This document shows positions 5,030-34,635 of a stretch of DNA of 64,000 bases, one piece after another. The position numbers were made by a program, and so were the translations under genes. This stretch comes from an uncultured Anaeromyxobacteraceae bacterium (lineage in GTDB: Bacteria > Myxococcota_A > UBA9042 > DTJE01): positions 80,343 through 144,342 of the forward strand of contig CAZFVA010000001.1 of assembly GCA_964522105.1 (NCBI GenBank), given 5' to 3'. The notes below the pieces were generated by a model, which saw nothing but the letters and a program-made list of their open reading frames with translations, was not told the DNA's origin and did not search any database. Each line of letters starts with the position of its first letter. Positions within the stretch are counted from its first letter, which is position 1.

Positions 5030-5055
5030 GCCGCCCCGTTTTCGAACGGGGCGGC
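5030..5055 (+). other. Perfect GC-rich stem-loop (11-bp stem GCCGCCCCGTT / AACGGGGCGGC, TTCG loop)
   Basis: Seen directly in the sequence. There is no downstream T-run, so it is either a factor-dependent or GC-type terminator for the upstream lipoprotein gene, or a regulatory hairpin in the leader of the next ORF. Confidence 0.5.
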
Positions 5056-5268
5056 AGCATGACCAGGGAAAAACGCTCGATGGACGACGGACCAAGAATT
5101 ATCCCCACCGACAAAGTCCTTTGCGGGGGAAAGTTTTTTCGTCTGGTCGCCGCATGCTGCCGTAACTGCACCGAACCTCAGTTCTGTCGGGAATTCTGGG
5201 ATTTTTTCCAAAAAAACGGTACTACTCCGCAGGAATACCTGCGAAAATTTGGCCTCGAGGAGGAAGGT

Positions 5269-5694: not shown

Positions 5695-5805
5695 TGGTGT
5701 CGCTGCATCGCCTTTACGCGGGGCCTGCTTTCGTATGACGGAGTCGGGCTGCTGCCTGTCTTCCCGAAGATTCCGTTTATCCAGGTATTTAGAGGTATCC
5801 ACATC

Positions 5806-9499: not shown

Positions 9500-9520
9500 C
9501 GCCCTTCGTGAGGTGCCGTC

Positions 9521-10546: not shown

Positions 10547-10725
10547 CGCGACCGGTTGTCTGCCGTGGCGAGGAGATTTATTTACAAAGGCATCTGCGCC
10601 GCTCTCCAGCCGTTTAATGACAGCAACTGACAAACGCGCATTGACGTGCAGAATTCGGTCGTCAAAGCTTGAAATCGATTTATGAATCTGATAGAAAACT
10701 GCCGGGTAACAAATGGATACGATCA

Positions 10726-11586: not shown

Positions 11587-11605
11587 CCCTGCGAATTCCG
11601 CAAGA

Positions 11606-20697: not shown

Positions 20698-22047
20698 CTA
20701 CTCAACAACCAGCGGATCGGTCACCGCATCCGGGTTAATGCCGAACAGCTCGTCCAGAATGTAACCACGGTAAGGGTTAGTCGGAATTGGAATATCGCCG
20801 GACGCCAACCAGAACATCCCGTCCCCGGGCTTGAAAACTATTGAATAGATTGCGCCATTTACCGCGATTGCGCCGCCCTTGTCGTTATTGTCAAAGTCGT
20901 CAGCAGCGTATTCCTCGTCCTTGATCGGGTTGTATCTGTCGCGCAGAACCGATACTGCGACCGGCACGTCAAGCTGCCCGTAAATCGTGTCTTTACCTTC
21001 AGGCGTCAGAAGCTGTTCCAGCCGCATGTACCTTGCATACGTGGACGCATCCTCTTTCTTGGTGTCTTCCCACGGGGTCATTTCAGGAACCGTGAAGTGG
21101 TTGGTAATATAGACCAGTCCGTCGTCACCAAGCTCTTCATAGTACAGGTGCGTTGCAGTCATCTCGAAGATGGCGGCGCGACCTTCCTTTCCGGAAGTAA
21201 CCATCATGTTTTCCGAGCTCATGTGGTTTGCGGTCGTGATGTACGTGATAATTTCATCCATCGTCGTAAAACTGGAAAGGATGTGATTGACCATCTGAGC
21301 ATGGGGCTGCCCTTCCCGATCAAGGTCATTAGTTGAACCATTTTCGTTAGTTGCAACTGTAATGCCTGCAGCATTGATGCCGTTATACGCTGCCACATTA
21401 CCTGGGAACCCCACTACGACGTACGGAATCTTTCCTTCAGAATGACGCACGATAACTGTCGGATATTTCAGCAGATATTCAATATTATCCCAGTCAAGGT
21501 TGCGTCCGTGAAGCAGTTCACCATCTTTAGTCGCAGGCCCGGCAACAGCAAACTGCGAGCAGGCCAGCATGCCGGAATCAACCCAGTCCAGAACGACTTC
21601 GCCATAGGCAAGGGCCATACACCGGTTCATCGTCCAGCCATCTTCACCCGCAACATCGGCCATCCCCTGACACTCATCTTTTGAAGCCGGGTAGCTGTAA
21701 GTCATGGCTTCAGCAATAAATCCAAGACCCTCAGCCAGAGGTTCAAGCAGGCCGAGCTCCGAATTTTCCAGAAAATACACACCGTCGAGCAGTTCATCCT
21801 TCATGAACGTCGCGTGCTGACGACCCATTTCGTATGGCGTTCCTTTCAAATGAAGAATGCGGACATCGCCACGCATCGTCAGTCCGGGCTCGTAATTGGT
21901 AGTCCACCCGATGTCTTCTGTCACATCGCCGGCAACGTCACCAACGGCAACGTCTTCAACTGAATCGAGCGGAGTTTCCACAGACTCGCCACAGGCATTT
22001 ATCAGAAGGGCAGCGGTCAAAGCAGCAATAATTCCCAAAACGCGCAT
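20698..22047 (-). CDS. Secreted lipoprotein, Ntn-hydrolase-like (peptidase C45 / acyltransferase-like) candidate
   Basis: Lipoprotein signal MRVLGIIAALTAALLINAC. Size (449 aa) and the internal GMLACSQFAV context are reminiscent of Ntn-hydrolase precursors. The functional call is weak. Confidence 0.55.
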   Translation of the reverse strand: MRVLGIIAALTAALLINACGESVETPLDSVEDVAVGDVAGDVTEDIGWTTNYEPGLTMRGDVRILHLKGTPYEMGRQHATFMKDELLDGVYFLENSELGLLEPLAEGLGFIAEAMTYSYPASKDECQGMADVAGEDGWTMNRCMALAYGEVVLDWVDSGMLACSQFAVAGPATKDGELLHGRNLDWDNIEYLLKYPTVIVRHSEGKIPYVVVGFPGNVAAYNGINAAGITVATNENGSTNDLDREGQPHAQMVNHILSSFTTMDEIITYITTANHMSSENMMVTSGKEGRAAIFEMTATHLYYEELGDDGLVYITNHFTVPEMTPWEDTKKEDASTYARYMRLEQLLTPEGKDTIYGQLDVPVAVSVLRDRYNPIKDEEYAADDFDNNDKGGAIAVNGAIYSIVFKPGDGMFWLASGDIPIPTNPYRGYILDELFGINPDAVTDPLVVE

Positions 22048-22148: not shown

Positions 22149-25100
22149 TTACTGAACGACTTCCAACTGAACGGGGCCAAGCAGGCCGGTGGCAATAATC
22201 GTATCGGCCTTCTTCGAAAACTGCACGGCGGTCGGATCTTTCGCCATGCCAAGCCCGACCAGACGGTTACGAAGTGCAGGAACTACGGTGACTTCAATTG
22301 TATTGGTCCCGGATTCCAGCAGGCCAGTCACGTCCATTTTGAAAGGCTCGGCGATGACTTCGGTCGGATTTGAACCGTTGACCGATACCAGCGCGGCACC
22401 ATGGACGCGGCCAAGGTTCAGCCACATCTTATGCTGCATCGGGGATTCAGCGTCAGGGTCATAAGCCGGGTTCAGAGCATCCATTTCAATTGAAACAACC
22501 GCTGTGTACACGCCCTGCGATGACGAATACTTCAGCGCTTCGACATCGCGCCAGTCAACAAGATTAGCGTTAACGGCTTCGTACGTACCGCCCGAGACAT
22601 CATCGCCTGTGACCTTCAATGTCCACAACGGGATCGACTGGACAGGCGTAACCTGCCCTGCCAGCGGCACCATGCCGCCATAATCTTCGCCTTCAGGCGG
22701 TTCGTTGATGCCGCACGCAATTATCCGCGATCCATAAGCCGGAAATGCGATCGTGACGGTACCCGCATCACCCGAGCGCTCAAACTCAAGCTGCCGGGAA
22801 GCGCCGGTGGCAGGATCAAGCAACAGCGCATGCGTGCAGTCCAATCGCGTCGTAATAGTGACTTCCTGTTCCAAATCGATCGGATTGCGCAGGAACACAA
22901 GATGGCCATTGTCCGAAAGGGCGCGATGAATCATGCGGGTCGAGGAAATCTGATTAAACTGAAAAATCGGCATCAACCCGACATCAACCAGCGCAGGTTG
23001 CAGACCTGCACAGGTGAACAGGAACGGATTACCATTTTCTTGCGTTGACGGGGTCTCGATGATTGGAACCTCCGCGCCCGCAGCAGACGCCGCAATTCCT
23101 TCAAACGCAGCCTTAACCGCCGCATCGCCGTTTTCATAATCATTGAACCCGGGCTGAACGGCAGGGGCATCACCGACAACGACAACCGGCAGACCGGCAT
23201 CGGCCATGGCCTTCAGATTGGCCGCAGCGGCAGGCTGCATCCACGGGGCACGCATCACAACGACGCCACTGTAGGTCGCTCCGGCTATCGACAACTTGCC
23301 GTCCTTGACGACCGCACGCGACAACACATCGTCATTGGTCCATTCCCAGGTGTAGCCCATTATTTCCAGCGAATTCAGCATGGGCCACACGGCCCCAAGC
23401 CACCACGCCGACTGTTCAGGTTTGAACCCGCCGAACAGGCCCTGAACAATCCCGAGCATCTCATCCTGGCCGGCCGCAACTTCGTCGCCAAACGCGCCTT
23501 TGTAGAAGTCTTCATAATGTTCGCGCAGCGCCATGATCGACGCGGGCATCCCGACATACGGATAATAGACCAGCAGATCGGCCTGCGGGGCCCCCTGCCG
23601 CAGCGCATACTGAACCCGCGACACGTACTTGTTGATGGTGTACATGAACTGCCAGAAAGGGTTGGCCTCCGACACGTTTTCGGAATACGTGCCGCCTGAA
23701 AAAGGCGACGAAAACGCATGCCAGTCGGTAATGCCATAAACAGCGTCACCAGTCTTGTACGGGAAACCGTGGTAAGTGACTGAATTCACTCCGGAAGTAA
23801 ACAACTTATCAAGCCACGCCTTCATCTTTGTCGGGGTCGTCATGTAATCGCGACCTGACGAAACAAGCGACTCGGCCGAAATGACATTCTTCCCGTACTG
23901 GTGCCCGCCCGATGTGACGGCCTTGATCGCCAGTTCCGAGCCACCGGCATAAAGCTGTTCAGTTTCCGGTGTATCCGCCGCCCCGGCCGCCTTGATAACA
24001 TCAATCTTCAAGCCGTAAGGCTGGATCCTGAACTTCAAACCATTTTCACCGGCCCATGCTGTACTGGTACCGATGAAACGTTCAATAAACAGATCGGACA
24101 CCGTCTGCTGATAGTCGCGGGCAACACGTTCGTCCATTTCAGAAAACTTGAACGGACATCTGGTGGCGATACCTGCGCCATCAAAGATGTGATTATCCGC
24201 ACCGGGGGAAACGACTGCAGGCAGCAGCGGCCGCACGTCATATCCCCTTAACTCCTTGAACTTATCAAAGAAATCCGCCGTAAAGTGCCGTTCAGTCTTC
24301 AATTCAAAGCTGTCAACAAAGACGCCGCGCACAGCGGTCCCGAACAGGTCAGCCAGACCGTTCTGACTGCCCGAAAGGTAATCAACACTGGTCCTGACAA
24401 GGTCAGCGTCAAAATGGTCAACGGCGAACGCATCCCGGGGTGCAGGCAACGCATTCAGGTTCACATACTCGCCGTCGGGACATGAATAAAAGCCAATTAC
24501 GCGCCAGTCACCGGCAGGTGCCGCCCATTCAAGCTTGCCGTCAGCCGACACCTTGTCTGTCAGCATCACAACCGACGCCGGATCCAATTCAAGCTGATCT
24601 GTCAGGTCATACACGTCGGCCGCATTGCGAACGCCACCGGTCTTTTTCGCGGCCATGACCTCGACGACCTTACATTCATCAGGCAGGTAGCGGGCCATCG
24701 GTTCACCGATACTTTCAGCCAGCACCGCAACTTCATAAAACGGCTCGGGACCCGGTTTTTCGAACTTCAGATTGACCGTTGCGGGGCCGGCAACCGTTTC
24801 TTCAGACCACAGAAGGGTCTGCATCGAATCGCCGACCGCCACATGAGCACCGCCGACAGGCCATCCCGAACCAAGCGTGACGTCCAACTGAATGCCGTTC
24901 TGAACAGCAGAATTGGCCGCCTTCCTGACGTGGGCCCAATATGAATCCGAACCCCACGCCAGTCTGCGCGCCATCTCTTCATCTGATGCGTCGTTGTTCA
25001 GCGCGGCGTTGAAAGACTGAAGCTCGGCGCCGCCAAAGAATGACGACGACAGGATGGCCGTTTCGCGAAGGATTTCTTCGTCTTCAACGTCATCCCCCGG

Positions 25101-25247
25101 CCACCACCACCTGACCCAGGGGCGATATTCGGCGGACGGACTGTCCCACTCGGACCAGTTAACAGAGAGTCGGGACAAGACGGGATCGGCACAGCCGGAA
25201 CCGACTGTCAGCATCGCAACCAGAACAAAAGCCAGCCTGAATTTCAT
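22149..25247 (-). CDS. Large (~1030 aa) secreted lipoprotein, putative glycoside hydrolase-like multi-domain enzyme
   Basis: Signal/lipobox MKFRLAFVLVAMLTVGSGC. The N-terminal PWVRWWWPGDD block and the size resemble large Bacteroidetes-type glycosidases. No catalytic motif was confirmed by eye. Confidence 0.65.
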   Translation of the reverse strand: MKFRLAFVLVAMLTVGSGCADPVLSRLSVNWSEWDSPSAEYRPWVRWWWPGDDVEDEEILRETAILSSSFFGGAELQSFNAALNNDASDEEMARRLAWGSDSYWAHVRKAANSAVQNGIQLDVTLGSGWPVGGAHVAVGDSMQTLLWSEETVAGPATVNLKFEKPGPEPFYEVAVLAESIGEPMARYLPDECKVVEVMAAKKTGGVRNAADVYDLTDQLELDPASVVMLTDKVSADGKLEWAAPAGDWRVIGFYSCPDGEYVNLNALPAPRDAFAVDHFDADLVRTSVDYLSGSQNGLADLFGTAVRGVFVDSFELKTERHFTADFFDKFKELRGYDVRPLLPAVVSPGADNHIFDGAGIATRCPFKFSEMDERVARDYQQTVSDLFIERFIGTSTAWAGENGLKFRIQPYGLKIDVIKAAGAADTPETEQLYAGGSELAIKAVTSGGHQYGKNVISAESLVSSGRDYMTTPTKMKAWLDKLFTSGVNSVTYHGFPYKTGDAVYGITDWHAFSSPFSGGTYSENVSEANPFWQFMYTINKYVSRVQYALRQGAPQADLLVYYPYVGMPASIMALREHYEDFYKGAFGDEVAAGQDEMLGIVQGLFGGFKPEQSAWWLGAVWPMLNSLEIMGYTWEWTNDDVLSRAVVKDGKLSIAGATYSGVVVMRAPWMQPAAAANLKAMADAGLPVVVVGDAPAVQPGFNDYENGDAAVKAAFEGIAASAAGAEVPIIETPSTQENGNPFLFTCAGLQPALVDVGLMPIFQFNQISSTRMIHRALSDNGHLVFLRNPIDLEQEVTITTRLDCTHALLLDPATGASRQLEFERSGDAGTVTIAFPAYGSRIIACGINEPPEGEDYGGMVPLAGQVTPVQSIPLWTLKVTGDDVSGGTYEAVNANLVDWRDVEALKYSSSQGVYTAVVSIEMDALNPAYDPDAESPMQHKMWLNLGRVHGAALVSVNGSNPTEVIAEPFKMDVTGLLESGTNTIEVTVVPALRNRLVGLGMAKDPTAVQFSKKADTIIATGLLGPVQLEVVQ

Positions 25248-25474
25248 ATAATCACCACGGGATTTGATTGAGCGACTCATCAAATGACCTTTTATCAGGG
25301 TGTACCGGGTCGTAACGACGCCCACAGTATAGATGAATCTGACAGGATTTCAGCGCAGGAACTTAGTCCTGAAAAATTTGCTGAACTTGTGCCGCAAACG
25401 TTCAGATTTTGCTAAGCTTCCGGGATTGTAATTCCGACCGGCAAAAGTCGGTTGGTCAGGACTGAAAAAACAGG

Positions 25475-26923
25475 ATGAAAGACATGAAGAACCTGCGATT
25501 TGCGATGTTACCGGCAGTCCTTATGGCCTTAAGTTTCGGCACAGGCTGCAGTTCATCGAATGTACCTGCTGATACGACTGTCCATCAGGATATTGTGGCT
25601 GACACAGGGACAGATACCGTTGCCGATGCGACCGACACAAATGTCCCGGACACAACTGACACAGCTTCGCCGGATGTTGTCACACCTGATGACAGCACCA
25701 TTGCTGATGATACCGAACCGGGCGATACCGCGGTTGACGCTTCCGACACCACGGACACAACACCTGAATTTGTCTGGGCTTCCGGCTGCGAAGGCAGCGG
25801 CACCGGCGCAGCGTGGACAATGATCGAAGACCATACTTTCCTGCGCGGCCCGCTGATTCAGATGTCCGACAGAAACACTGTCACCGTCGTGTGGCGCACC
25901 GCAGTCCGAAGTGACAACGAAGGCTGCGTTGACTACGAAGTCGACAGCGAAACGCTGACGGCATGTGGCATGGCCGACAAAAACGGCCAGTATGAAATCA
26001 CGCTGAATGACCTGCCGGTGGAAACTGAAATCACATACTCGGCGCGGGTTGGCGACGTGAAAACCGGTGATCTGACGTTCAGGACAATGCCGAACACCCC
26101 GAAGCCTATGAAATTTGCTGTATTTGCCGACGCCCACAACAACTTCGAAAACCTGCAGAAGATGACGGCCGTCGCGCTTGCCGAAGGCGTTGACTTCGCG
26201 TTCGGCGTCGGCGATTTCGTTCATCAGGCTGAAACCATTCAATATGACGAGTTATTTCAGGGATTCCAGGATCTTGGAAGCCGCGTAAACATCTGGAGCG
26301 TCATCGGCAATCATGACTCGGGCAGCGAAGAATACTTCGGTTCCTTCGTCGTCCCGGCAGGCAGCCAGGACCCGTATGACATCGAGCACGGATACGCGGA
26401 AGGCTGGTGGGATCGGCGCATCGGAAACGTCTGGCTTGGCGGCGGCTGGGTCCGCGACTTTTACATCTCGGGTCCCGATTCGGACTTCGGCGAAGTCGGC
26501 TGGTTCAGGCAGCAGTTCCAGAAAAACCATTTCAAGACGGCTCAGTGGAAGCTGTTCTTCATCCATGAACCGCCGTACTGCCAGGGCTGGGGCGGATGCA
26601 ATTATGACGGCGAATCGTGCCTGCGCCCGTCGCTGGTTCCGATGGCGGCACAGAACGGCATTCAGGCCACCTTCCACGGTCACATGCACGGTTATGAATA
26701 TGGCGAATCGGAAGGCGTCAAAATATTCATACCGGGCGGTCTGGGCGGCGAACTGGACTACTTCTGCGAAAACAGCACGCCCCCGCAGCCATGGGCATAC
26801 AATTACGTCCATAACTTCGCCATCGTAGAGACGAATTGCGACAAGATGATCGTCCGCTTCATGGGCCTTGACGGTGTTGAACTTGACCGCGTTGAAGTAC
26901 CGTATGTCGCCCCGACCGAATAG
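25475..26923 (+). CDS. Secreted metallophosphoesterase (calcineurin-like) lipoprotein, paralog 1
   Basis: Lipoprotein signal ..LSFGTGC and a D/T-rich tether. The metallophosphoesterase motifs appear in order: FAVFADAHNN (DxH), GVGDFVHQ (GDxx), VIGNHDSG (GNHD/E), FHGHMHGYEYG (GHxH). Confidence 0.8.
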   Translation: MKDMKNLRFAMLPAVLMALSFGTGCSSSNVPADTTVHQDIVADTGTDTVADATDTNVPDTTDTASPDVVTPDDSTIADDTEPGDTAVDASDTTDTTPEFVWASGCEGSGTGAAWTMIEDHTFLRGPLIQMSDRNTVTVVWRTAVRSDNEGCVDYEVDSETLTACGMADKNGQYEITLNDLPVETEITYSARVGDVKTGDLTFRTMPNTPKPMKFAVFADAHNNFENLQKMTAVALAEGVDFAFGVGDFVHQAETIQYDELFQGFQDLGSRVNIWSVIGNHDSGSEEYFGSFVVPAGSQDPYDIEHGYAEGWWDRRIGNVWLGGGWVRDFYISGPDSDFGEVGWFRQQFQKNHFKTAQWKLFFIHEPPYCQGWGGCNYDGESCLRPSLVPMAAQNGIQATFHGHMHGYEYGESEGVKIFIPGGLGGELDYFCENSTPPQPWAYNYVHNFAIVETNCDKMIVRFMGLDGVELDRVEVPYVAPTE

Positions 26924-26942
26924 CCCGCTTAGAGGTAACACA

Positions 26943-28322
26943 ATGAAAGACCTGCTGAATTTGCGACCGGTCGTGTTGATGGTGTTATTGGTATCAGTTT
27001 CCATGGTTTCAGGCTGTGCTTCGTCAGTGACTCCGACAGACACAGGCCGGGATATCATTGCCGACACTGCCGTTGCCGACACTGCCGTTGCAGATACCGC
27101 CGTTGCCGACACTGCCGTTGCAGATACTGCCATTGCCGATACTGCCATTACCGATACAACCCATGAATTTCAATGGGCTTCCGGCTGTGAAGGAACCGGC
27201 ACCGGCGCGACGTGGACATTAATCGAAGACCACACGTTCCTGCGCGGCCCCATGATACAGATGTCTGACTGGAACACGGCTACCATCCTGTGGCGAACCG
27301 CCGTCAAGTCCGACGAAGAAGGCTGCGTGGATTACGAAGTCGGCGCAGAAACCTTTACGAAGTGCGGGACTTCAGACAAACGTGGTCAGTATGAAATAAC
27401 GCTGGATGACCTGCCGGCCGCGACGGAAATCACCTATTCGGCCAGAGTTGGCGACATCAAGACGACCGATCTGACCTTTCGGACAATGCCTGACCGCCCG
27501 GCCCCGATGAAATTCGCTGTGTTTGCGGATGCGCACTGCAACATTGAAAATCTGAAGAAAATGACCGCGGTGGCACTGGCCGAAGGAGTCGATTTTGCGT
27601 TCGGCATTGGCGATTTCATCAATACCCCGGAAGACGTCCAGTTCGACCAGGTGTTTGAAGGACTCCAGGACCTTGGAAGCCGCGTAAATATCTGGGCCGT
27701 GCTTGGTAATCATGACACCGGCGGCATGTATTTCTACAACGCTTTTGCACTGCCGAAGGGCAACACGATCGAACCCGACTACAGCAATGGCTATGGCGAG
27801 GCCTGGTGGGACAAGCGGATCGGCAACGTCTGGCTTGGCGGCGGGTGGGTCATTCCATTCCTTTTCGGGGAGCCTGAAGGGGTTGAAAGCGAACAGAGCT
27901 GGTTCAGGCAACGCTTCCAGGAAGATCACTTCAAAACGGCTCAGTGGAAACTGTTTTTCATACACGAACCGCCTTACTGTCAGGGCTGGGGCGGATGCAA
28001 CTATGACGGCGAAGAGTGCCTGCGCGAATCCCTGATGCCGATGGCAGCCGAAAACGGTATCCAGGCCACCTTCCACGGGCACATGCACGGCATAGAGTAC
28101 GGCGAAACGAACGGCGTCAAGGTGTTCATCCCGGGTGGAGTCGGCGGAGATCTGGACTACTTCTGCGAAAACAGCTCACCACCGCAGCCATGGGCATACA
28201 ACTACGTCCACAACGTCGCAATCGTCGAAACGAACTGCGACAAGATGGTCGTCCGCTTTCTGGGCCTCGATGGCGTTGAACTTGACCGCGTCGAAGTCCC
28301 ATGGGTCGAACCGACGCAATAA
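26943..28322 (+). CDS. Secreted metallophosphoesterase (calcineurin-like) lipoprotein, paralog 2 with tandem-repeat tether
   Basis: It has the same motif set as paralog 1: FAVFADAHCN, GIGDFINT, VLGNHDTG, FHGHMHGIEYG. After the tether the two proteins are largely collinear and appear roughly two-thirds identical by eye. The signal is MKDLLNLRPVVLMVLLVSVSMVSGC. The tether is a perfect (ADTAV)n repeat. The track ORF starts at 26868 and the likelier start is the ATG at 26943. Confidence 0.8.
   Translation: MKDLLNLRPVVLMVLLVSVSMVSGCASSVTPTDTGRDIIADTAVADTAVADTAVADTAVADTAIADTAITDTTHEFQWASGCEGTGTGATWTLIEDHTFLRGPMIQMSDWNTATILWRTAVKSDEEGCVDYEVGAETFTKCGTSDKRGQYEITLDDLPAATEITYSARVGDIKTTDLTFRTMPDRPAPMKFAVFADAHCNIENLKKMTAVALAEGVDFAFGIGDFINTPEDVQFDQVFEGLQDLGSRVNIWAVLGNHDTGGMYFYNAFALPKGNTIEPDYSNGYGEAWWDKRIGNVWLGGGWVIPFLFGEPEGVESEQSWFRQRFQEDHFKTAQWKLFFIHEPPYCQGWGGCNYDGEECLRESLMPMAAENGIQATFHGHMHGIEYGETNGVKVFIPGGVGGDLDYFCENSSPPQPWAYNYVHNVAIVETNCDKMVVRFLGLDGVELDRVEVPWVEPTQ
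27058..27156 (+). repeat. In-frame tandem repeat, 15-bp unit (gccgacactgccgtt and variants), about 6.5 copies, encoding (ADTAV/ADTAI)n
   Basis: Seen directly in the sequence: ccgacactgccgttg x2, cagataccgccgttg, ccgacactgccgttg, cagatactgccattg, ccgatactgccatta. It sits in the lipoprotein tether of paralog 2. The opposite strand yields the artefactual ORF MAVSATAVSAT.... Confidence 0.9.
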
Positions 28323-28400: not shown

Positions 28401-29270
28401 ATGCGCGGCATTTGCCGAGGTAACTTCTTGAACAGCACATTTACCCAGGCGCTCAAAATCGCGATGTTCGATCTTGGCACCGCAATAAGAACCAAAAAGG
28501 CTTTCGTAGCAATCATTCTTTACGCCGGACTGGCCCTGCTGGTTGCCGCAGTAGTCGTATTTCTGCAGGACAAACTGCTTGCCGACCCGACGGCTTCAAA
28601 CGCCCTGGCGCAACTGAACGGCCTGAAAGACAACCTGCAGGATCCGATGGTCGCCAAACTTGGTATGAACGCGGAACAGGCCAAATATCTGCTGGGAATC
28701 CCGGTTGTTGTCATGGTCTTTTTCTGGATGACTCAGTCATTTCTACCACTTCTGATTACCGTCATCAGTTCTGACATCTTAAACAGCGAAATCAAAACAG
28801 GTTCGGCCAGATTCACGCTGCTGCGAAGCTCCAGGACTTCACTGGTTCTTGGCAAGGTGATTTCCCACGGACTGCTGTTTTTGACCGCAACAATCCTGTC
28901 GTACATAACGTTTCTGGTATATGTAACGGTCAAAATGCCCACCTTCGACCTGCTGGCTTCGGCGCCGATATTGCTGAAGTTCCTTGGCAGTACAATCGTT
29001 TTCGGCTTCTGTTATCTGGGGCTTGTTGCCGCCGTGTCGGCCACAATCGATTCAACGGCGCTGGCGACGCTGGCCACAATCATCATCCTGATGGTCTTAA
29101 GCGGAGTGGCACAGTCAGATTACTTCGCCGTGCTGTCCCCGGCCCACTACAGGTATGACCTGTGGTCACCGAACGCGCTTGAGGTATTAAAAGGTCTCGC
29201 AGCCTACCTCGGCTTTGGAACGGCATTCTTCGCCTTCGCCTGGTTTCGCTTCGCCGGGAGGGACTTATGA
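28401..29270 (+). CDS. ABC-2 family transporter permease
   Basis: Six predicted hydrophobic helices with ABC-2-like topology. The stop overlaps the ATG of the downstream ABC ATPase (ATGA). The exact start is uncertain (track ORF 28344, alternatives 28386 and 28401). Confidence 0.6.
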   Translation: MRGICRGNFLNSTFTQALKIAMFDLGTAIRTKKAFVAIILYAGLALLVAAVVVFLQDKLLADPTASNALAQLNGLKDNLQDPMVAKLGMNAEQAKYLLGIPVVVMVFFWMTQSFLPLLITVISSDILNSEIKTGSARFTLLRSSRTSLVLGKVISHGLLFLTATILSYITFLVYVTVKMPTFDLLASAPILLKFLGSTIVFGFCYLGLVAAVSATIDSTALATLATIIILMVLSGVAQSDYFAVLSPAHYRYDLWSPNALEVLKGLAAYLGFGTAFFAFAWFRFAGRDL

Positions 29271-30196
29271 GCAGCCAATACGCAATTGAAACGACCGGCC
29301 TGACCAAGATTTTCGGTACCCTGACGGCGGTAGACAAGCTTTCACTGAAGGTGCCGACAGGATCAATATTTGGACTGCTGGGCCCGAATGGCGCAGGTAA
29401 AACAACAACATTTTCAATGATCTGCGGCTTTGTAAAGCCTTCCGCCGGTGAAGCATCTGTGCTTGGCTTCCCGCTGAAGCAGTTCCCGCATGCATCAGGA
29501 AAGCTGGCCGCGCTGCCACAAGACGCCCGTTTCCACCCCGAGCGCACAGTCATAGACTGCATGGTTTATCTTGGAACGCTGGCCGGCCTGACCGACATGG
29601 AAGCCCGCGCTCAGGCAAAGCAACTGCTTATAGATGTTGATCTTTTAGACGCCATGAACATGAAGGGCGGTCACCTTTCCCACGGTATGGCCAAAAGGTT
29701 CGGCATCGCGCAGGCGTTCCTGGGCCACCCGAAACTGGTGCTTCTTGACGAGCCGACGGCAGGCCTTGACCCCAAAAATGCACACACCGTACGTCAGATG
29801 ATCAGAGTACTTTCCGGTTCTGCGACCGTAGTCGTTTCCAGCCACAATCTGGCTGAAGTCCAGGACCTGTGCACTTATGCCGGGATTATCAACGCCGGCA
29901 AACTGGTATCGTCAGGGTCGATGGACGAACTGACCGCCAGAAACCAGCAGGTCGTCGTCACAGTGACGAAGGCGGACGCAGCCCTGATCAGCAAAATCGA
30001 AGCTATGAACCGGGTCATCGGAGTCGTGGTCGCCGGTTCAGGAAACGACCTGAAGATCATGTTCAAGGCGAACGCCGACGAATCAATTGATCAGGCAGTT
30101 TCACAGATAATCGCGGGCATCATAGCGGCAGGCGGGGCAGTCGGCGGCGTCAGACGCGGCCAGGATCTTGAAGAACGCTACCTTGAAGTGACCTGA
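29267..30196 (+). CDS. ABC transporter ATP-binding protein (ABC-2 / exporter type)
   Basis: Walker A GLLGPNGAGKTTTFSMI, signature LSHGMAKRFGIAQAF, Walker B LVLLDEPTAGLD. It is translationally coupled to the upstream permease. Confidence 0.85.
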   Translation: MSSQYAIETTGLTKIFGTLTAVDKLSLKVPTGSIFGLLGPNGAGKTTTFSMICGFVKPSAGEASVLGFPLKQFPHASGKLAALPQDARFHPERTVIDCMVYLGTLAGLTDMEARAQAKQLLIDVDLLDAMNMKGGHLSHGMAKRFGIAQAFLGHPKLVLLDEPTAGLDPKNAHTVRQMIRVLSGSATVVVSSHNLAEVQDLCTYAGIINAGKLVSSGSMDELTARNQQVVVTVTKADAALISKIEAMNRVIGVVVAGSGNDLKIMFKANADESIDQAVSQIIAGIIAAGGAVGGVRRGQDLEERYLEVT

Positions 30197-30356
30197 CAAT
30201 ATCAAGGGCACGCCCCGGGGCGCTGGAACAATCACATCGCTTCCCACAAACACAAAACCGCCATAAACACATCTACCCGATACGCAAATGCAGTGTTATC
30301 ATTTCGAAGTTCTTCCGTGTCGCCCCCAGCACCCTGACAGAATCCCGGAGGCTACG

Positions 30357-32705
30357 ATGCGTTCATCATTGCGAACTCTGTCGGTCTGTAAAGTAATTAT
30401 TCTGGCAGTAACTGCCGGTTTCGCCATCGGCGGCTGCAGTAACTGGCAGCAGGCCGAAGATACCGGATTCGACGCTGAAGATTCCGCTGACACAATGAAT
30501 GAACTGGTAATTCCTTCGGATGATGGCCGCGATTCTACCGGCGAAGAAATCGATTCGACTGACCTGTTTGACGACACCATACAATTGGACACCGATGACA
30601 GCGCGGACGCCGACGACGATGTTGAAGCACGCGACACGTTGGACACCACCAGCAATCCTGACATTCCAGATACTTACGACACTGCCGACGTCGATTCCGA
30701 CCACGGTCTTCCTGACTGTCCGGGCGCCCCGGGCTGCGAGTGCACCACCGGGGATGACTGTGAAAATGGCCTGTGCGTGCCGACAAACGACAAATCATTC
30801 TGCGGTCAATTGTGCTGGCTCGATTCAGGGTGTCCCGAGGGCTGGATCTGCGAAGAGATCAACCTCGGCGACAAGACGCTGCGGGCCTGTATCTACAAGT
30901 TCCCGACGCTTTGCCAGCCGTGCCGTGAGGATTCGGAATGCCTGCCGCAATATGGGGCCAGGGACCGCCGTTTTGTCTGCGTCGATACAGGCGCAAACGG
31001 CAAATTCTGCGGGACGGGATGCGCTGCGGAACCGGATTGCCCCGAAGGATACAAGTGCGCGGATGCCCCGACGAACGCCGGCCATTTTCTGCAATGCCAG
31101 CCCGATAACGGCGAATGTGCATGTACTGAAAAATTCATCGAAGGCGGTTACGAAACAGACTGCTTCCGCACAAACGACATCGGGACATGCCCCGGAACCA
31201 GAACGTGCGACATGGAATGCTCGGCAAAATCTGCCGAAGCCGAGATATGCAACCTGCAGGACGACGACTGCGACGGCGCGACCGATGGCGAGAACACTTC
31301 AGATTGCCAGACATTCTTCTATGATTTTGACAACGACGAATACGGAACCGACGACTCGAAGTGCCTGTGCGAAACGACGGGCGAATATCGGGCAACTGTT
31401 GAAGGCGACTGCAATGACAACGACCCGGAAGTGAAGCCGGGAAACTTTGAAATCTGCAACGACGGCAAAGACGACAACTGCGACGGACTGACTGACGTGG
31501 AAAACTCGCAGGAATGTAAGAATTATTTCCTGGACGTTGACGGCGACGGATACGGCCTTTCGGAATACAAGTGCCTTTGCGCTGCATCAGGAAACTACAG
31601 AGCCACCCGCGCTTGTTTCGACAGTGGCTCGTGTGACTGCCTGGATACCGACCTGGAAGTTAACCCCGGACGCATTGAAATCTGTAACAGCGGCAAAGAC
31701 GACAACTGCGATGCTCTGGCAGACGGTGAAAACTCACAAGGTTGCACAAAGTTCTACCGCGACGCAGATAACGACGGATATGGGACCGGCGAGTACAAGT
31801 GTCTGTGCGCGGCAGTCGGCCAGTACAAGATTACGTCTGCCTGCGTCGTTGGCGTCTCGTGCGACTGCAACGACTTCGACCCCGACATGAACCCGGGATT
31901 GCAGGAAGTCTGTGGCAACGGCAAGGACGACAACTGTGACGGGTCCCAGGACACCGAAAACGCGACTTACTGCATCGACTATTTCCTGGATGCTGACGAC
32001 GACGGATTCGGCGTAACAGGAATGAAAAGATGCCTGTGCTACGAGGAAGGATTGTATCGAGTCCTGGGCGGAGGCGACTGCAACGATAACAACGCGGCCA
32101 TGAATCCCAATAACCCTGAAATCTGCAACAATTCTATCGATGACGATTGCGACGGGTATGCCGACAACACGTCGGGACAACCGAACCAGAAGTGCAACGT
32201 GTGCGGCGACGGCCTGATAGACAACGGGGAGGTCTGCGACCACGGAAACTCGAATCCCGGACTGGCGTGCGCTTCTGACTGCAAATCTATCCCGTGCTCC
32301 AACGAAGCTGATGCGTCCATAACTCAGATAAACGGCAGGAACTGCTACTGGCGATCGACGTTGGTCGTGGGGCGATCGGATGCAGCCTCAAGATGCGAAT
32401 CCCGACTTGGATACCTTGTCCGAATGGAAACATCAAACGAGCGGGACTGGGTCTTTGGAAACATGATCTTTCCACCGGGAAGCGGAAGCAAAGTGTGGGT
32501 CGGCGCTCAGAAGTGCGGCGGCAACTGGTGCTGGGATAACGGCCAGATCGTTGGTTCTGAATGGGATTGGAGCCCCGGAGAGCCCAGCGGAAACGGGGAC
32601 TGCGCACAATCATCTGGCAACGGCGCACGCTACGACGACGTCGGCTGCAACAGCGCCAACCGCGACTACGTGTGCGAAAGACCGACCGTCGGAACCTCGC
32701 GCTGA
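30357..32705 (+). CDS. Giant Cys-rich secreted lipoprotein with ~5 MopE-like putative metal-binding repeats and a C-terminal C-type-lectin-like domain
   Basis: Lipoprotein signal MRSSLRTLSVCKVIILAVTAGFAIGGC, then an acidic D/T/S tether. About five ~65-aa repeats follow, of the form C(N/D)D(N/F)DP..PG..E(I/V)CN(D/S)GKDDNCDG..D.EN...C..Y(F/Y).D.D(G/N)DGYG....KCLC. This matches the CNGxDDDCDG 'putative metal-binding motif' abundant in Myxococcota. The C-terminus has ..CYWRSTLVVGRSDAASRCESRLGYLVRMETSNERDWV..W.. ARYDDVGCNSANRDYVCE, the pattern of a C-type lectin fold. Confidence 0.8.
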   Translation: MRSSLRTLSVCKVIILAVTAGFAIGGCSNWQQAEDTGFDAEDSADTMNELVIPSDDGRDSTGEEIDSTDLFDDTIQLDTDDSADADDDVEARDTLDTTSNPDIPDTYDTADVDSDHGLPDCPGAPGCECTTGDDCENGLCVPTNDKSFCGQLCWLDSGCPEGWICEEINLGDKTLRACIYKFPTLCQPCREDSECLPQYGARDRRFVCVDTGANGKFCGTGCAAEPDCPEGYKCADAPTNAGHFLQCQPDNGECACTEKFIEGGYETDCFRTNDIGTCPGTRTCDMECSAKSAEAEICNLQDDDCDGATDGENTSDCQTFFYDFDNDEYGTDDSKCLCETTGEYRATVEGDCNDNDPEVKPGNFEICNDGKDDNCDGLTDVENSQECKNYFLDVDGDGYGLSEYKCLCAASGNYRATRACFDSGSCDCLDTDLEVNPGRIEICNSGKDDNCDALADGENSQGCTKFYRDADNDGYGTGEYKCLCAAVGQYKITSACVVGVSCDCNDFDPDMNPGLQEVCGNGKDDNCDGSQDTENATYCIDYFLDADDDGFGVTGMKRCLCYEEGLYRVLGGGDCNDNNAAMNPNNPEICNNSIDDDCDGYADNTSGQPNQKCNVCGDGLIDNGEVCDHGNSNPGLACASDCKSIPCSNEADASITQINGRNCYWRSTLVVGRSDAASRCESRLGYLVRMETSNERDWVFGNMIFPPGSGSKVWVGAQKCGGNWCWDNGQIVGSEWDWSPGEPSGNGDCAQSSGNGARYDDVGCNSANRDYVCERPTVGTSR

Positions 32706-32769: not shown

Positions 32770-34560
32770 TCAAACAAACCGACGTCTAGTGACCAGAATG
32801 GCGAAAAGAATCGTACAGAGGATGACTTCGGCCACAGGCAGCGAGCGGCCCGTAGAATTCGCCTGACAGCCGCTTGACGACTTGCCGGCACATTCTGCCG
32901 ATGCGGAACATTTGTCGTTCGATGTTTTCGCATTACCGTCATCGCACAATTGACCTTCTTCCAACATGCCATCTTCCGGACATGTCAATCCTGTTCCATT
33001 GCAGTATTCCGGTTTGTCGCATGGAAAAGCAGGCTCCCGGCATACATGGCTGCTGGGAAAAATGTTGTCGTTCGGGCAATTTATCGATGTTCCGGTGCAG
33101 TATTCCGGGGCGTCACACAAATCGGTCGCAGGACGGCACTCAGCGGTTTTTGATCTTATAAGATCGATCGGGCATCCCGTATCTGAGCCTGTACAAAATT
33201 CCGCAACATCACAGACCCCGACGGCGGAACGACATTCAAAGGTGGAACTGCGCACTGCATCTGACGGACATACCGGTGATGAGCCCGAACAATATTCGGC
33301 CTCATCGCAGGCCCCGACAGACTTTCGACATTCATACGAAGTCGCTTGAAACGCGTCGGGCGGACAACTGTCACTTGAGCCTGAGCAGAATTCAACAATG
33401 TCACACTTCCCGCCCGAACCGCGACACGGTTCAACGTCAGTCAGATAATAGTATCCGTCACAACAATCACCAGACACGCAGTCGGCATCAGCCTGAATAG
33501 CCTGCAGCCAGTCATACACATTGCCGGACAATCTGGTTACGCGAGACGCGGGGTAACACCCACCGCCATATCCTGAAACTACACCAACAACGTAGTTCAC
33601 CTTATCCTGATTCACCCAGACACCCGACCCGCTTTGACCGGAACAGACGTCGATCGTGCTGCAGATGAGATTCGCAGTGATACTCGCGGAACTACCCGAA
33701 GTAGTTATCATTTTGTTGGCATCCCAGTCGAATGGATATCCGGCAGTTGTGTGATCGAGCGATGTCAGTTCAGTTGAATCGAGTGCCGAATAACCAACCG
33801 TACCGGTCGTCTTTCCTATCGGTACGGCCAGAGCCAGAAGACCAATGTCATAATCCCAGTTATGGTTGACAGTCCAACCCTCCGGGGAAAAATACCACCT
33901 GGCATAAGTCTCGCCATAAGGCTTCAACATGTAATTTAATCCGGGAGTAACGACGATTAAATCAGGCCAGCGCTCCAAATCGGCGTCGAAAACGCAATGG
34001 CCGGCCGTAAGAACAAGACTTTCTGCAATAAGAATTCCAGTGCAGACATACCAGTCAGAACCGTACCGCATCGAAAGGCTGACAACAGCCGAAAAAGGAA
34101 ACACCTGCGTATCTTTGACCCTGACCCGCTCATCATCACTACCGACTATGTTGCAGGTACCGTCGCTTCTTTTTTGAAGGACCCTGTCAACATTGAGATC
34201 TTCTACGGTCGGCACTGTTGATTGCCGAAGATCAAACTTCTTCGATGCCGGTGCCCACGGATTCCTGGAAAAACCAGGATCATCAGGACGTAAAGCCGGT
34301 TTCCCAGATGGAAACGGCATTGGTTTGATATCCCACGGCGGTTTTTCCATCCAGTCGGGCAATTCATAAACCACGGTCGCCGCTTCGGGATCAGGCAGTT
34401 TTCCTTCAACTAACCTGCGTTCCGTACTTGCTTCCGGCAAAGCGGATGAACCTTGTGACAACACCGAATGCTGCATGGCCATCGAGCCGTCTTCAAAACA
34501 CACAATCATCAGGATGGACGCCGTGACAGTCGCCGCTGTCAGGCGGCAAAGCTTCTTCAT
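32770..34560 (-). CDS. Secreted trypsin-like (S1) serine protease with five tandem ADAM-disintegrin-like Cys-rich repeats and a MYXO-CTERM-like tail
   Basis: Signal MKKLCRLTAATVTASILMIVC. S1 catalytic contexts are LTAGHCV (His), DYDIGLLAL (Asp) and DVCSGQSGSGVWV (Ser). Five 32-aa repeats such as CRPATDLCDAPEYCTGTSINCPNDNIFPSSHV and CREPAFPCDKPEYCNGTGLTCPEDGMLEEGQL follow. They match the ADAM disintegrin C-terminal consensus CRx5CDxPEYC(N/T)GxSxxCPxD. Next is a CDDGN..C Myxo-type Cys repeat. The C-terminus SGCQANSTGRSLPVAEVILCTILFAILVTRRRFV is a Cys motif, then a TM helix, then RRR. Confidence 0.8.
   Translation of the reverse strand: MKKLCRLTAATVTASILMIVCFEDGSMAMQHSVLSQGSSALPEASTERRLVEGKLPDPEAATVVYELPDWMEKPPWDIKPMPFPSGKPALRPDDPGFSRNPWAPASKKFDLRQSTVPTVEDLNVDRVLQKRSDGTCNIVGSDDERVRVKDTQVFPFSAVVSLSMRYGSDWYVCTGILIAESLVLTAGHCVFDADLERWPDLIVVTPGLNYMLKPYGETYARWYFSPEGWTVNHNWDYDIGLLALAVPIGKTTGTVGYSALDSTELTSLDHTTAGYPFDWDANKMITTSGSSASITANLICSTIDVCSGQSGSGVWVNQDKVNYVVGVVSGYGGGCYPASRVTRLSGNVYDWLQAIQADADCVSGDCCDGYYYLTDVEPCRGSGGKCDIVEFCSGSSDSCPPDAFQATSYECRKSVGACDEAEYCSGSSPVCPSDAVRSSTFECRSAVGVCDVAEFCTGSDTGCPIDLIRSKTAECRPATDLCDAPEYCTGTSINCPNDNIFPSSHVCREPAFPCDKPEYCNGTGLTCPEDGMLEEGQLCDDGNAKTSNDKCSASAECAGKSSSGCQANSTGRSLPVAEVILCTILFAILVTRRRFV
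32947..33426 (-). repeat. Five tandem ~96-bp coding repeats (disintegrin-like modules)
   Basis: The protein-level 32-aa periodicity maps to this interval. Repetitive opposite-strand ORFs (..PVQYSG.. patterns at 32966..33349) reflect the nucleotide-level repetition. Confidence 0.7.
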
Positions 34561-34635
34561 GTCAAAATCCTTTTTCAGAGTGCCCTGGCAAAGGACAATC
34601 ATCTGGTAGTGTAAGTGCCGGTAACCTGGCACCAA

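What the first reader, a model, noticed from the sequence alone, without database searches (positions are those of the whole stretch)
25475..28322. Tandem duplicated secreted metallophosphoesterase lipoproteins with divergent tethers
The two adjacent 480-aa paralogs share all four calcineurin-like metallophosphoesterase motifs. After the tether they are largely collinear (roughly two-thirds identical by eye). They differ completely in their N-terminal tethers, one irregular D/T-rich and one a perfect pentapeptide repeat. Lipid-anchored extracellular phosphoesterases next to a glycosidase-like and an Ntn-hydrolase-like lipoprotein suggest a surface-displayed macromolecule-degrading battery, for example nucleic acid or phospholipid head-group hydrolysis during predation. 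It is unusual to see recent duplication with the catalytic core conserved and the stalk diversified.
Basis: partly seen in the sequence, partly recalled or inferred. Interest (0 to 1): 0.5.

Follow-up and report, generated by a model that had tools for sequence, protein, structure and literature searches.

The report
Paired tethered phosphoesterase lipoproteins
Two neighbouring genes of an uncultured Myxococcota bacterium encode sister membrane-anchored phosphate-ester-cleaving enzymes on floppy acidic stalks; they come from an old gene duplication and probably work with sugar- and amide-cleaving enzymes, which makes them a solid but fairly ordinary find.

Summary
Gene A (25475-26923, 482 aa) and gene B (26943-28322, 459 aa from the ATG behind a ribosome-binding site, not about 480) are tandem paralogs. 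They are 67% identical overall and 74% in the 386-aa core. Each has a signal peptide, a lipobox Cys25, an acidic disordered tether and all five metallophosphoesterase motifs.

The duplication is old (dS about 1.2) and both copies are under purifying selection (dN/dS 0.15). The pair is shared with one related metagenomic lineage. B evolved about twice as fast and rebuilt one otherwise invariant loop.

The tethers are not completely different. Their first ~18 residues align, B's repeat is imperfect, and acidic tethers occur throughout the family and the genome.

New evidence on function: relatives fuse this core in single lipoprotein ORFs to a C45 Ntn-hydrolase, a GH84-like glycosidase and a BT3783-like glycan phosphatase domain. 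The C45/GH106-like neighbours are conserved down to 40% identity. My best reading is that these are envelope-anchored phosphoesterases acting on phosphorylated glycoconjugates. The substrate is unproven, and predation, nuclease or phospholipase roles have no specific support.

The parts
25475..26923 (+). Gene A: 482-aa lipoprotein metallophosphoesterase. Metal and phosphate ligands: D219, H221, D247, N279, H280, H364, H403, H405.
   Evidence: ORF. Pfam PF00149 E 8e-14. Identical to database protein P0001. Motif residues invariant in the family (core numbering + 96).
25475..25549 (+). A: signal peptide and lipobox SFGTG|C, with Cys25 at 25547-25549.
   Evidence: PS51257-type pattern match. This Cys is invariant in alignment A3.
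25550..25762 (+). A: irregular D/T-rich acidic tether (residues 26-96; about 20 acidic residues, no K/R).
   Evidence: Composition. Against the L014 orthologue it evolves at dN 0.08, versus 0.012 in the core, with 4- and 7-aa indels.
25763..26923 (+). A: folded core. A Cys-containing N-terminal extension plus FN3-like beta-sandwich (to about 26107) is followed by the metallophosphoesterase domain (26108-26920).
26924..26942 (+). 19-nt A-B spacer with a ribosome-binding site, AGAGGT (26931-26936).
   Evidence: Read directly from the sequence. No terminator-like site lies in the spacer.
26943..28322 (+). Gene B: 459-aa paralogous lipoprotein metallophosphoesterase. Ligands: D196, H198, D224, N256, H257, H341, H380, H382.
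   Evidence: ORF. Identical to P0002 (459 aa). Pfam PF00149 E 3e-14. Invariant columns in A3.
26943..27017 (+). B: signal peptide and lipobox MVSG|C, with Cys25 at 27015-27017.
   Evidence: The AlphaFold2 model has a helix at residues 4-20.
27018..27161 (+). B: acidic tether (residues 26-73), predicted disordered.
   Evidence: pLDDT below 50 for residues 24-70, with no secondary structure.
27058..27157 (+). 15-nt tandem repeat, 6.7 copies, 87% match, encoding (A[VI]ADT)n inside B's tether.
   Evidence: Tandem Repeats Finder score 137. The L014 orthologue keeps the 15-nt period as a 30-nt higher-order unit with different residues.
27852..27896 (+). B-specific remodelled loop IPFLFGEPEGVESEQ (B residues 304-318). 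A and the family have RDFY.S.P..D.GEV here (A residues 327-341, nt 26453-26497).
   Evidence: Six positions conserved in 17-18 of 18 other members are changed in B and its orthologue B'. B's model confidence is lower here. The profile alignment places this loop opposite the Arg258 substrate loop of kidney bean purple acid phosphatase.
22149..25247 (-). Context: divergently transcribed GH106-like predicted lipoprotein (1032 aa from M27).
   Evidence: Pfam PF17132 E 1e-57. PDB sequence hits are the GH106 rhamnosidases 6q2f and 5mqm. Conserved near the phosphoesterase gene in L001, L002, L005, L015, L017, L019, L020 and L031.
20698..22047 (-). Context: C45-family Ntn-hydrolase-like secreted protein with a short acidic tether.
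   Evidence: NCBIfam C45_proenzyme E 3e-48. Homologous over its full length to the N-terminal half of the C45-phosphoesterase fusion protein P0050/L029 (33% identity, E 3e-69).
28401..30196 (+). Context: ABC-2 permease (28401-29270) and ABC ATPase (29267-30196), immediately downstream on the same strand.
   Evidence: Pfam PF12679. ATPase has DrrA/GldA-like NCBIfam hits. The phosphoesterase-ABC2-ABC order is kept in all close relatives with enough flanking sequence. No terminator-like site lies before these genes.

Best explanation
A and B are old tandem paralogs. Each encodes an exported, lipid-anchored binuclear metallophosphoesterase.

Architecture (shown or predicted from sequence): a signal peptide is followed by the lipobox Cys25, which would be acylated. 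Next comes a 48-71-residue acidic, disordered tether. The 386-residue core has an FN3-like sandwich and a calcineurin-type phosphoesterase domain, and carries 6-8 conserved cysteines.

Catalysis (inferred from the family): the core arrangement is that of plant purple acid phosphatases, but the metal site is the canonical superfamily one: D, H (DxH), bridging D (GD), N and H (GNH), H, and HxH. A metal-bridged hydroxide would attack a phosphate ester, and no purple Fe(III)-tyrosinate centre is expected.

Function (inferred): they act outside the cytoplasm together with the neighbouring GH106-like glycosidase and the C45 Ntn-hydrolase. They remove phosphomonoester or phosphodiester groups from phosphorylated glycoconjugates, for example teichoic-acid-like or phosphoglycan polymers or glycolipid/LPS-type material. 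This lets the glycan be degraded and releases phosphate.

The two copies (inferred): both have been kept by selection and probably differ in substrate. B has rebuilt a loop that corresponds to a substrate-contact loop of purple acid phosphatases.

The tether (inferred): it is a flexible, negatively charged spacer that holds the enzyme away from the membrane.
For: Shown or predicted here:
- Paralogy.
- All ligand motifs invariant in 46 relatives.
- Lipobox Cys invariant in 41 full-length relatives.
- Six family-specific conserved cysteines, which fit an oxidising compartment.
- Tether predicted disordered.

Selection and history:
- dN/dS is 0.15 between A and B, and 0.06-0.09 between orthologues.
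- The pair is present in a second lineage, L014.
- A+B form one clade in 200 of 200 bootstraps, and B's branch is about twice as long as A's.
- B-specific changes at otherwise invariant loop positions map to the Arg258 loop of the plant enzyme.

Functional partners:
- The order C45(-), GH106-like(-), phosphoesterase(+) is kept in relatives at 65-70% identity and in one at 40% identity.
- Single-ORF lipoprotein fusions exist: tether-C45-phosphoesterase (L029/P0050), GH84-phosphoesterase-EEP (L021/P0049) and tether-phosphoesterase-EEP (L025). An EEP gene sits directly upstream in L026/L027, and an overlapping GH27 gene follows in L010.
- The fused EEP domain is closest to BT3783 (4c1r, E 1e-25). 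BT3783 is a phosphatase acting on phosphorylated high-mannose glycan (PMC4978465).

Precedent: PhoD, a structural relative, is an endo-acting teichoicase (PMC7086022).
Against: - No substrate has been tested.
- Roughly half of the distinct family contexts show no glycosidase, C45 or EEP neighbour: L003, L004, L007, L009, L022, L023, L028, L030, L038.
- Part of the conserved neighbourhood may be plain synteny among related genomes. The CM/DAHP-synthase gene is conserved there too.
- The closest solved relatives are broad-specificity phosphomonoesterases.
- The C45 partner has no obvious role in phosphoglycan breakdown.
- Two contexts hint at lipids instead: an overlapping PlsB gene in L009 and a PAF-AH-like esterase in L005.
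- The A/B division of labour rests on one remodelled loop in a model that I could not inspect at atomic level.
Confidence: 0.42

Rival explanations
1. They are general phosphate-scavenging phosphatases: broad-specificity extracytoplasmic phosphomonoesterases/diesterases that release inorganic phosphate from any organic phosphate, with no dedicated link to the neighbouring hydrolases.
For: - The nearest solved structures are broad-specificity purple acid phosphatases and PhoD.
- Characterised bacterial proteins of similar architecture show generic activity. Rv2577 hydrolyses pNPP and bis-pNPP (PMC7642983). The Riemerella metallophosphoesterase is described as an acid phosphatase (PMC12398890).
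- Many family members have unrelated neighbours.
Against: - Three independent single-ORF fusion architectures and repeated adjacency link this core to C45, glycosidase and glycan-phosphatase-like domains.
- I recognised no pst/pho genes among the neighbours I annotated.
- Two diverged copies kept under strong constraint suggest specialisation.
Confidence: 0.25
2. They are lipid head-group phosphodiesterases (phospholipase C/D-like or sphingomyelinase-like). They would work with an Ntn amidase (ceramidase-like) and an esterase to dismantle membrane lipids or lipid A, of prey or of the cell itself.
For: - A PlsB gene overlaps the phosphoesterase gene in L009.
- A PAF-AH/PETase-like esterase lies between the GH106-like and phosphoesterase genes in L005/L006.
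- The C45/CBAH-type Ntn hydrolases cleave linear amides.
- Acid sphingomyelinases belong to the same superfamily.
Against: - The lipid hints come from single loci.
- The fused EEP domain resembles a sugar phosphatase, not a sphingomyelinase.
Confidence: 0.12
3. They are extracellular nucleases or nucleotide phosphodiesterases used to digest nucleic acids, for example during predation.
For: - The superfamily includes Mre11/SbcD, 5'-nucleotidases and cyclic-nucleotide phosphodiesterases.
- The lupin enzyme PPD1, a diphosphonucleotide phosphatase, is among the top structural hits.
Against: - No nuclease capping domain or DNA-binding domain is present.
- No nucleic-acid-related gene is linked or fused in 43 loci.
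- A predatory lifestyle for this uncultured Myxococcota bacterium is not established.
Confidence: 0.08
4. They mature or remodel the cell's own envelope polymer. The phosphoesterases would process a self-made polymer or lipid-linked intermediate that the adjacent ABC-2 exporter moves across the inner membrane.
For: - The phosphoesterase-ABC2 permease-ABC ATPase order is conserved in all close relatives.
- An ABC-2 system with a GldG-like auxiliary protein lies next to a 41%-identical member in L008.
- No terminator-like site separates these genes in the window.
Against: - The permease matches only the generic PF12679 family and the ATPase is DrrA/GldA-like, so neither is diagnostic of a polysaccharide or teichoic-acid exporter.
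- The ABC link is absent from most of the more distant members.
- The fusions are to degradative domains.
Confidence: 0.08

Closest known systems
Plant high-molecular-weight purple acid phosphatases (kidney bean 6ofd/4dhl, wheat phytase 6git, lupin PPD1 3zk4)
   Different: Only 13-18% identity. Motif I is DxH instead of GDxG, and the GDxxY tyrosine ligand is missing: that position is H in A, N in B, and variable in the family. No purple Fe(III)-tyrosinate centre is therefore expected. The Pfam N-domain model PF16656 does not detect the N-domain. These proteins are lipoproteins with an acidic tether and a family-specific set of cysteines.
Bacterial purple-acid-phosphatase-like enzymes: M. tuberculosis Rv2577 and the Riemerella anatipestifer T9SS metallophosphoesterase
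   Same: Exported bacterial enzymes. Rv2577 has a purple-acid-phosphatase N-domain plus a Metallophos domain and hydrolyses both pNPP and bis-pNPP (PMC7642983). The Riemerella metallophosphoesterase is described only as a secreted acid phosphatase (PMC12398890); its domain make-up was not checked here.
   Different: Rv2577 uses a Tat signal and the Riemerella enzyme uses type IX secretion, not a lipobox. I made no direct sequence comparison with either. In the exhaustive search, the nearest relatives outside the family mostly carry D-x-R/Q/G rather than D-x-H in motif I.
PhoD (B. subtilis alkaline phosphatase D / endo-teichoicase, 2yeq)
   Different: 10% identity, no hit to a PhoD Pfam model, and a weaker structural match than purple acid phosphatases.
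BT3783-type EEP glycan phosphatase of the Bacteroides yeast-mannan locus (4c1r)
   Same: It is not a homologue of A or B. It is the closest solved relative (E 1e-25) of the domain fused to this family's core in L021, L025 and P0049. It illustrates the proposed logic: a phosphatase clears phosphate from a glycan so that glycosidases can proceed (PMC4978465).
   Different: Different fold and different phylum. It is encoded in a Bacteroides mannan-utilisation locus (PUL-Man2; PMC4978465) rather than in a fused lipoprotein. The window itself has no EEP gene.

Membership tests
Calcineurin-like metallophosphoesterase superfamily (PF00149) | Five motifs carrying the metal and phosphate ligands: DxH, GD, GNH[DE], H, GHxH | tested here: met
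   A: D219, H221, G246-D247, G278-N279-H280, H364, G402-H403, H405. B: D196, H198, G223-D224, G255-N256-H257, H341, G379-H380, H382. All are invariant in 46 relatives. Pfam E-values are 8e-14 and 3e-14, above the gathering score.
Calcineurin-like metallophosphoesterase superfamily (PF00149) | Beta-alpha-beta-alpha-beta sandwich fold | tested here: met
Calcineurin-like metallophosphoesterase superfamily (PF00149) | Two bound metal ions and phosphoester hydrolysis | not testable with these tools
   Needs metal analysis and enzyme assays.
Purple acid phosphatases (EC 3.1.3.2) | Seven invariant ligands in GDxG / GDxxY / GNH[DE] / VxxH / GHxH, including the tyrosine that gives the Fe(III)-tyrosinate chromophore | tested here: not met
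   Motif I is FADAH (DxH). In the profile alignment the His lies opposite the Gly of the plant enzyme. The GDxxY position is H in A and N in B, and is S/N/G/I in the family.
Purple acid phosphatases (EC 3.1.3.2) | N-terminal FN3-like domain packed on the catalytic domain (plant high-molecular-weight type) | tested here: met
Bacterial lipoproteins (PROSITE PS51257 type) | N-terminal basic region, hydrophobic core, and a lipobox ending in Cys at position 15-35 | tested here: met
   A: MKDMKNLRF...SFGTG|C25. B: MKDLLNLRP...MVSG|C25. The Cys is invariant in 41 full-length relatives. Lipidation itself, and inner- versus outer-membrane or surface location, cannot be tested here.
PhoD-like phosphatases (PF09423) | Match to the PhoD catalytic-domain model | tested here: not met
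Acid sphingomyelinase / SMPDL3 phosphodiesterases | A closest-fold relationship to this subfamily | tested here: not met
Mre11/SbcD nucleases | A closest-fold relationship to this subfamily | tested here: not met

The most novel reading that the evidence does not exclude
The family marks an undescribed, modular, membrane-tethered enzyme set of uncultured Myxococcota. It would combine a C45 amidase, a glycosidase (GH106-like, GH84-like or GH27) and a phosphoesterase, with or without an EEP phosphatase. In some lineages the parts are fused into one lipoprotein and in others they are split into separately tethered ones. The set would take apart phosphodiester-bridged glycoconjugates of other organisms' envelopes. 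In the window's lineage, which has no EEP gene, the duplicated copy B would have taken over a second step, such as phosphomonoester removal after diester cleavage, or a second substrate. A further unexcluded twist is that the D-T-[A/V/T]-rich tethers are O-glycosylated stalks, because they match the Bacteroidota sequon.
Probability: 0.18. Interest if true: 0.55.

Novelty: new member of a known kind. Interest (0 to 1): 0.3.

Why it matters
If the proposed role is right, the locus would give uncultured Myxococcota a concrete, testable enzyme set for degrading phosphorylated envelope glycopolymers and recovering phosphate. It would also offer a clean natural example of the same catalytic parts being either fused or separately tethered.

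As it stands, this is an uncharacterised subfamily of a very large and well-known enzyme class: 786 cluster representatives (one per cluster at 50% identity) at E < 1e-30 and about 20,000 at E < 1e-3. The duplication pattern is textbook, so the value is mainly in annotation and hypothesis generation.

Tried and rejected
- The AlphaFold-database fold search (afdb50) was unavailable, so no annotated predicted-structure neighbours were obtained.
- Pfam Pur_ac_phosph_N was not detected in the N-domains even at E = 10. I rely on fold evidence instead.
- NCBIfam gave only sub-threshold YfcE/YaeI/PdeM hits, which are uninformative.
- The 1079-aa protein upstream of the family member in L007 is not GH106-like, so that locus counts as unlinked.
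- The window's C45 protein has no sequence relative in the PDB.
- A Biopython bootstrap run timed out and was replaced by a faster neighbour-joining bootstrap.
- I considered that B might be a decaying or inactive copy. I rejected this because all ligands are intact, dN/dS is 0.15, and a 97%-identical orthologue exists in a second lineage.
- I considered that duplication predated the split from the single-copy relatives, with later loss in them. I rejected this because A+B form one clade in 200 of 200 bootstraps.
- I considered the TTG start for B (484 aa). I rejected it because of the ribosome-binding site and ATG, because a signal peptide must be N-terminal, and because public gene calls use 459 aa.
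- The simple promoter/terminator scan found nothing above the shuffle expectation.
- I could not inspect model coordinates. Disulfide pairing and the position of the B-specific loop relative to the metals are therefore inferred from alignments only.
Full report
**What is there.** Between 25475 and 28322 lie two same-strand ORFs. Gene A is 25475-26923 (482 aa). Gene B's mechanical ORF begins at a TTG inside A's 3' end. The biologically sensible start is ATG 26943, 19 nt after A's TAG and 6 nt downstream of AGAGGT, which gives 459 aa. Public gene calls for the identical protein P0002 use that start.

BLASTP of A against B gives 67% identity, E = 0.0. The 386-aa cores are 74.4% identical. Both proteins pass Pfam Metallophos.

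Both begin with a basic/hydrophobic signal peptide and a PS51257-type lipobox ending in Cys25.

B's tether contains a 15-nt repeat (27058-27157; 6.7 copies, 87% match) that encodes IIADT-(AVADT)4-AIADT-AITDT. A's tether is irregular and D/T-rich.

- B is 459 aa, not about 480.
- B's repeat is imperfect.
- The tethers are not wholly unrelated. The signal peptides and the first ~18 tether residues align, so the whole gene including the tether was duplicated, and a short (I/V)ADT(A/G) unit was later amplified in B.

**The protein family.** A word-indexed search found only 46 close clusters (E <= 1e-72), all from metagenomes or MAGs. Where they are named, the labels are 'metallophosphoesterase [Myxococcota bacterium]', 'predicted phosphodiesterase' or 'hypothetical protein [Deltaproteobacteria bacterium]'.

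In the family alignment, these core positions are invariant: D123, H125, G150-D151, G182-N183-H184, H268, G306-H307 and H309. Six cysteines are conserved.

Nearly every full-length member has a lipobox Cys followed by a 30-120-residue linker. The linker carries many D/E and almost no K/R. The Cys is invariant in 41 aligned full-length sequences.

An exhaustive profile search shows that the family is a sub-branch of a very large group: 786 representatives at E < 1e-30, 8,695 at E < 1e-10 and 20,254 at E < 1e-3. The next relatives are secreted proteins with Pur_ac_phosph_N + Metallophos domains. They often carry type IX secretion tails, Ig-like domains or lectin-like modules.

Two features set this family apart from those neighbours. 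It has His in motif I, where the neighbours mostly have D-x-R/Q/G, and it has the cysteine set.

**Structure.** The AlphaFold2 model of A's core is confident (pLDDT 93.9, pTM 0.93).

|---|---|---|

The architecture is therefore that of plant-type purple acid phosphatases. Membership of that family fails on its defining chemistry, however. Motif I is DxH, and the profile alignment places the His opposite the plant enzyme's Gly. The GDxxY tyrosine position is H in A, N in B, and variable elsewhere. The predicted metal site is the generic one of the superfamily.

A full-length model of B has a signal helix at residues 4-20, no structure and pLDDT below 50 for residues 24-70 (the tether), and a confident core.

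**Age and fate of the duplication.** Nei-Gojobori estimates between A and B are dS = 1.17 (core) to 1.39 (all codons), dN = 0.18-0.21 and dN/dS = 0.15.

A second lineage (Logan SRR26784072, L014) carries the same tandem pair followed by the same ABC genes. Between the two lineages:
- Orthologous cores are 97% identical, with dS 0.17-0.20 and dN 0.012-0.016.
- Tethers evolve 7-13 times faster at non-synonymous sites (dN 0.08 for A, 0.22 for B) and carry indels.
- Each tether keeps its type: irregular in A, and a 15/30-nt periodic repeat in B.

All other close relatives have a single copy. In a neighbour-joining tree, (A,A') and (B,B') form one clade in 200 of 200 bootstraps. That clade is sister to the single-copy relatives, and B's branch is about twice as long as A's.

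So the duplication is lineage-specific but old. Both copies are maintained by selection, and B is the faster-evolving copy.

B-specific replacements at positions otherwise conserved in 17-18 of 18 members cluster in one segment. A and the family have RDFY.S.P..D.GEV, and B has IPFLFGEPEGVESEQ. The profile alignment to plant enzymes puts this segment opposite the loop that carries Arg258 in the kidney bean enzyme. Arg258 is a substrate-contacting residue implicated in specificity (bioRxiv 10.1101/749564). This mapping rests on an alignment in a loop region, so it is suggestive only.

**Genomic context.** The window is chromosomal; it includes a cell-division and cell-wall gene cluster at 51.7-63 kb.

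- Upstream and divergent from A are a GH106-like predicted lipoprotein (Pfam E 1e-57; PDB relatives are GH106 rhamnosidases) and a C45-family Ntn-hydrolase-like protein (NCBIfam E 3e-48).
- Downstream on the same strand are an ABC-2 permease and an ABC ATPase.
- No terminator-like site lies in the A-B or B-ABC spacers.

I searched the window's neighbour proteins by tblastn against 43 related loci. The order CM/DAHP synthase(-), C45(-), GH106-like(-), phosphoesterase(+), ABC2(+), ABC(+) is kept throughout the clade at 65% identity or more. A member at 40% identity (L005/L006) keeps C45, GH106-like and phosphoesterase, with a PAF-AH-like esterase inserted.

**Gene fusions.** These are more telling, because they are independent of synteny.

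| Locus | ORF | Composition |
|---|---|---|
| L029 | 8465-11146, 893 aa | lipobox, acidic tether, C45 domain, phosphoesterase core |
| L021 | 3846-7802, 1318 aa | lipobox, GH84-like domain, phosphoesterase core, EEP domain |
| L025 | 9647-11971, 774 aa | lipobox, tether, phosphoesterase core, EEP domain |

- The C45 half of the L029 protein aligns over its full length with the window's C45 protein (33% identity, E 3e-69).
- In L026/L027 an EEP gene sits directly upstream of the phosphoesterase gene.
- In L010 a GH27+NPCBM gene overlaps the phosphoesterase gene's stop codon.
- The fused EEP domain is most similar (E 1e-25) to 4c1r, BT3783. BT3783 is the phosphatase of the Bacteroides yeast-mannan system and was assayed on phosphorylated high-mannose glycan (PMC4978465).
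- The phosphoesterase parts of the fusions carry no internal signal peptide, so they are real fusions rather than read-through artefacts.

About half of the distinct contexts show none of these partners. The window itself has no EEP or GH84 gene.

**Interpretation.** These points are shown or strongly predicted:
- There are two intact, exported, lipobox-bearing binuclear phosphoesterases.
- Each has a disordered acidic tether.
- They arose from an old duplication, and both copies are under constraint.

These points are inferred:
- (a) The enzymes act in the cell envelope or at the cell surface. The even number of conserved cysteines fits an oxidising compartment. The residues after the Cys (S/A/G) are not the inner-membrane retention signals known from E. 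coli or Myxococcus (my own knowledge), so an outer-membrane anchor is plausible. Orientation is unknown.
- (b) They cooperate with a glycosidase and a C45 amidase, based on conserved adjacency and fusions.
- (c) Their substrates are phosphate esters on glycoconjugates, based on the partner domains and on the precedents of PhoD as an endo-teichoicase (PMC7086022) and BT3783.
- (d) A and B differ in specificity.

I put about 0.4 on (b)-(c) taken together. The main rival is non-specific phosphate scavenging (0.25). Lipid head-group hydrolysis (0.12), nuclease or nucleotidase activity (0.08) and self-polymer maturation with the ABC-2 exporter (0.08) are less likely.

These are supported:
- paralogy;
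- intact motifs;
- lipoprotein signals;
- hydrolase neighbours;
- the general idea of a hydrolytic set.

These are not supported:
- 'Recent' duplication. It is old.
- 'Unusual'. A conserved core with a fast-changing low-complexity linker is the normal pattern. Acidic tethers are family-wide and occur on other lipoproteins in this window (3249-4829, 10669-11586, 30288-32705).
- A specific nucleic-acid, phospholipid or predation role.

**Novelty and score.** This is an uncharacterised sub-branch of a very large, well-understood enzyme class. It has a neat but conventional duplication history. The most useful new element is the fusion and neighbourhood evidence linking it to C45 Ntn-hydrolases, glycosidases and BT3783-like phosphatases. 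I classify it as a new member of a known kind, with interest 0.3.

Noticed in passing
window 25550-25762 and 27018-27161; also 30288-32705; L014 1328-4169: The tripeptide D-[S/T]-[A/I/L/M/T/V] is over-represented in these tethers relative to shuffles of the same residues. Counts are 8 against 2.8 expected in A (p 0.0015), 7 against 1.8 in B, and 9 against 1.8 in the MopE-repeat lipoprotein. The tripeptide matches the Bacteroidota general O-glycosylation motif (PMC8550257). Other family members have DPG- or DV-type tethers without it, the organism is a Myxococcota bacterium, and B's enrichment follows trivially from its repeat.
   Followed up: partly
window 32770-34635 (-): A 620-aa protein with a trypsin domain followed by four disintegrin-domain repeats (PF00200, E 1e-29) and a hydrophobic C-terminus. 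Disintegrin repeats are unusual in bacteria.
   Followed up: no
window 558-2553 (-): A NifH/frxC-family Fe-S ATPase (E 8.5e-85) lies next to a nitrogenase component-1-type oxidoreductase (E 4e-23). This is a nitrogenase-like pair of unknown role in this Myxococcota genome.
   Followed up: no
window 30288-32705 (+): An 805-aa lipoprotein with a long acidic tether and at least four MopE-type putative metal-binding repeats (PF11617, E 2e-34). The end of its sequence looked lectin-like by eye, which was not tested. A MopE/Dicty_CTDC protein also lies near the family member in L010.
   Followed up: no
L021 3846-7802; L025 9647-11971; L029 8465-11146: These are single-ORF lipoproteins that fuse the phosphoesterase core to other domains: GH84-like and EEP domains in L021, an EEP domain alone in L025, and a C45 domain in L029. 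Each begins with its own lipobox; L025 and L029 also carry a long acidic tether.
   Followed up: yes
L009 5278-9365; L005 6670-7887: One distant family member overlaps the stop codon of a PlsB-type glycerol-3-phosphate acyltransferase gene. Another is preceded by a PAF-AH/PETase-like esterase. Both are isolated hints towards lipid substrates.
   Followed up: partly
representatives P0062-P0197: In the 136 next-nearest purple-acid-phosphatase-like bacterial representatives, motif I is mostly D-x-R (64), D-x-Q (36) or D-x-G (19) rather than D-x-H (12). The plant tyrosine position is not Tyr either. The coordination of their first metal site is unclear.
   Followed up: no
window 25248-25474: A 227-nt divergent intergenic region lies between the GH106-like gene and gene A. 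It could hold shared regulatory sites. The simple sigma-70 scan found nothing above chance.
   Followed up: partly
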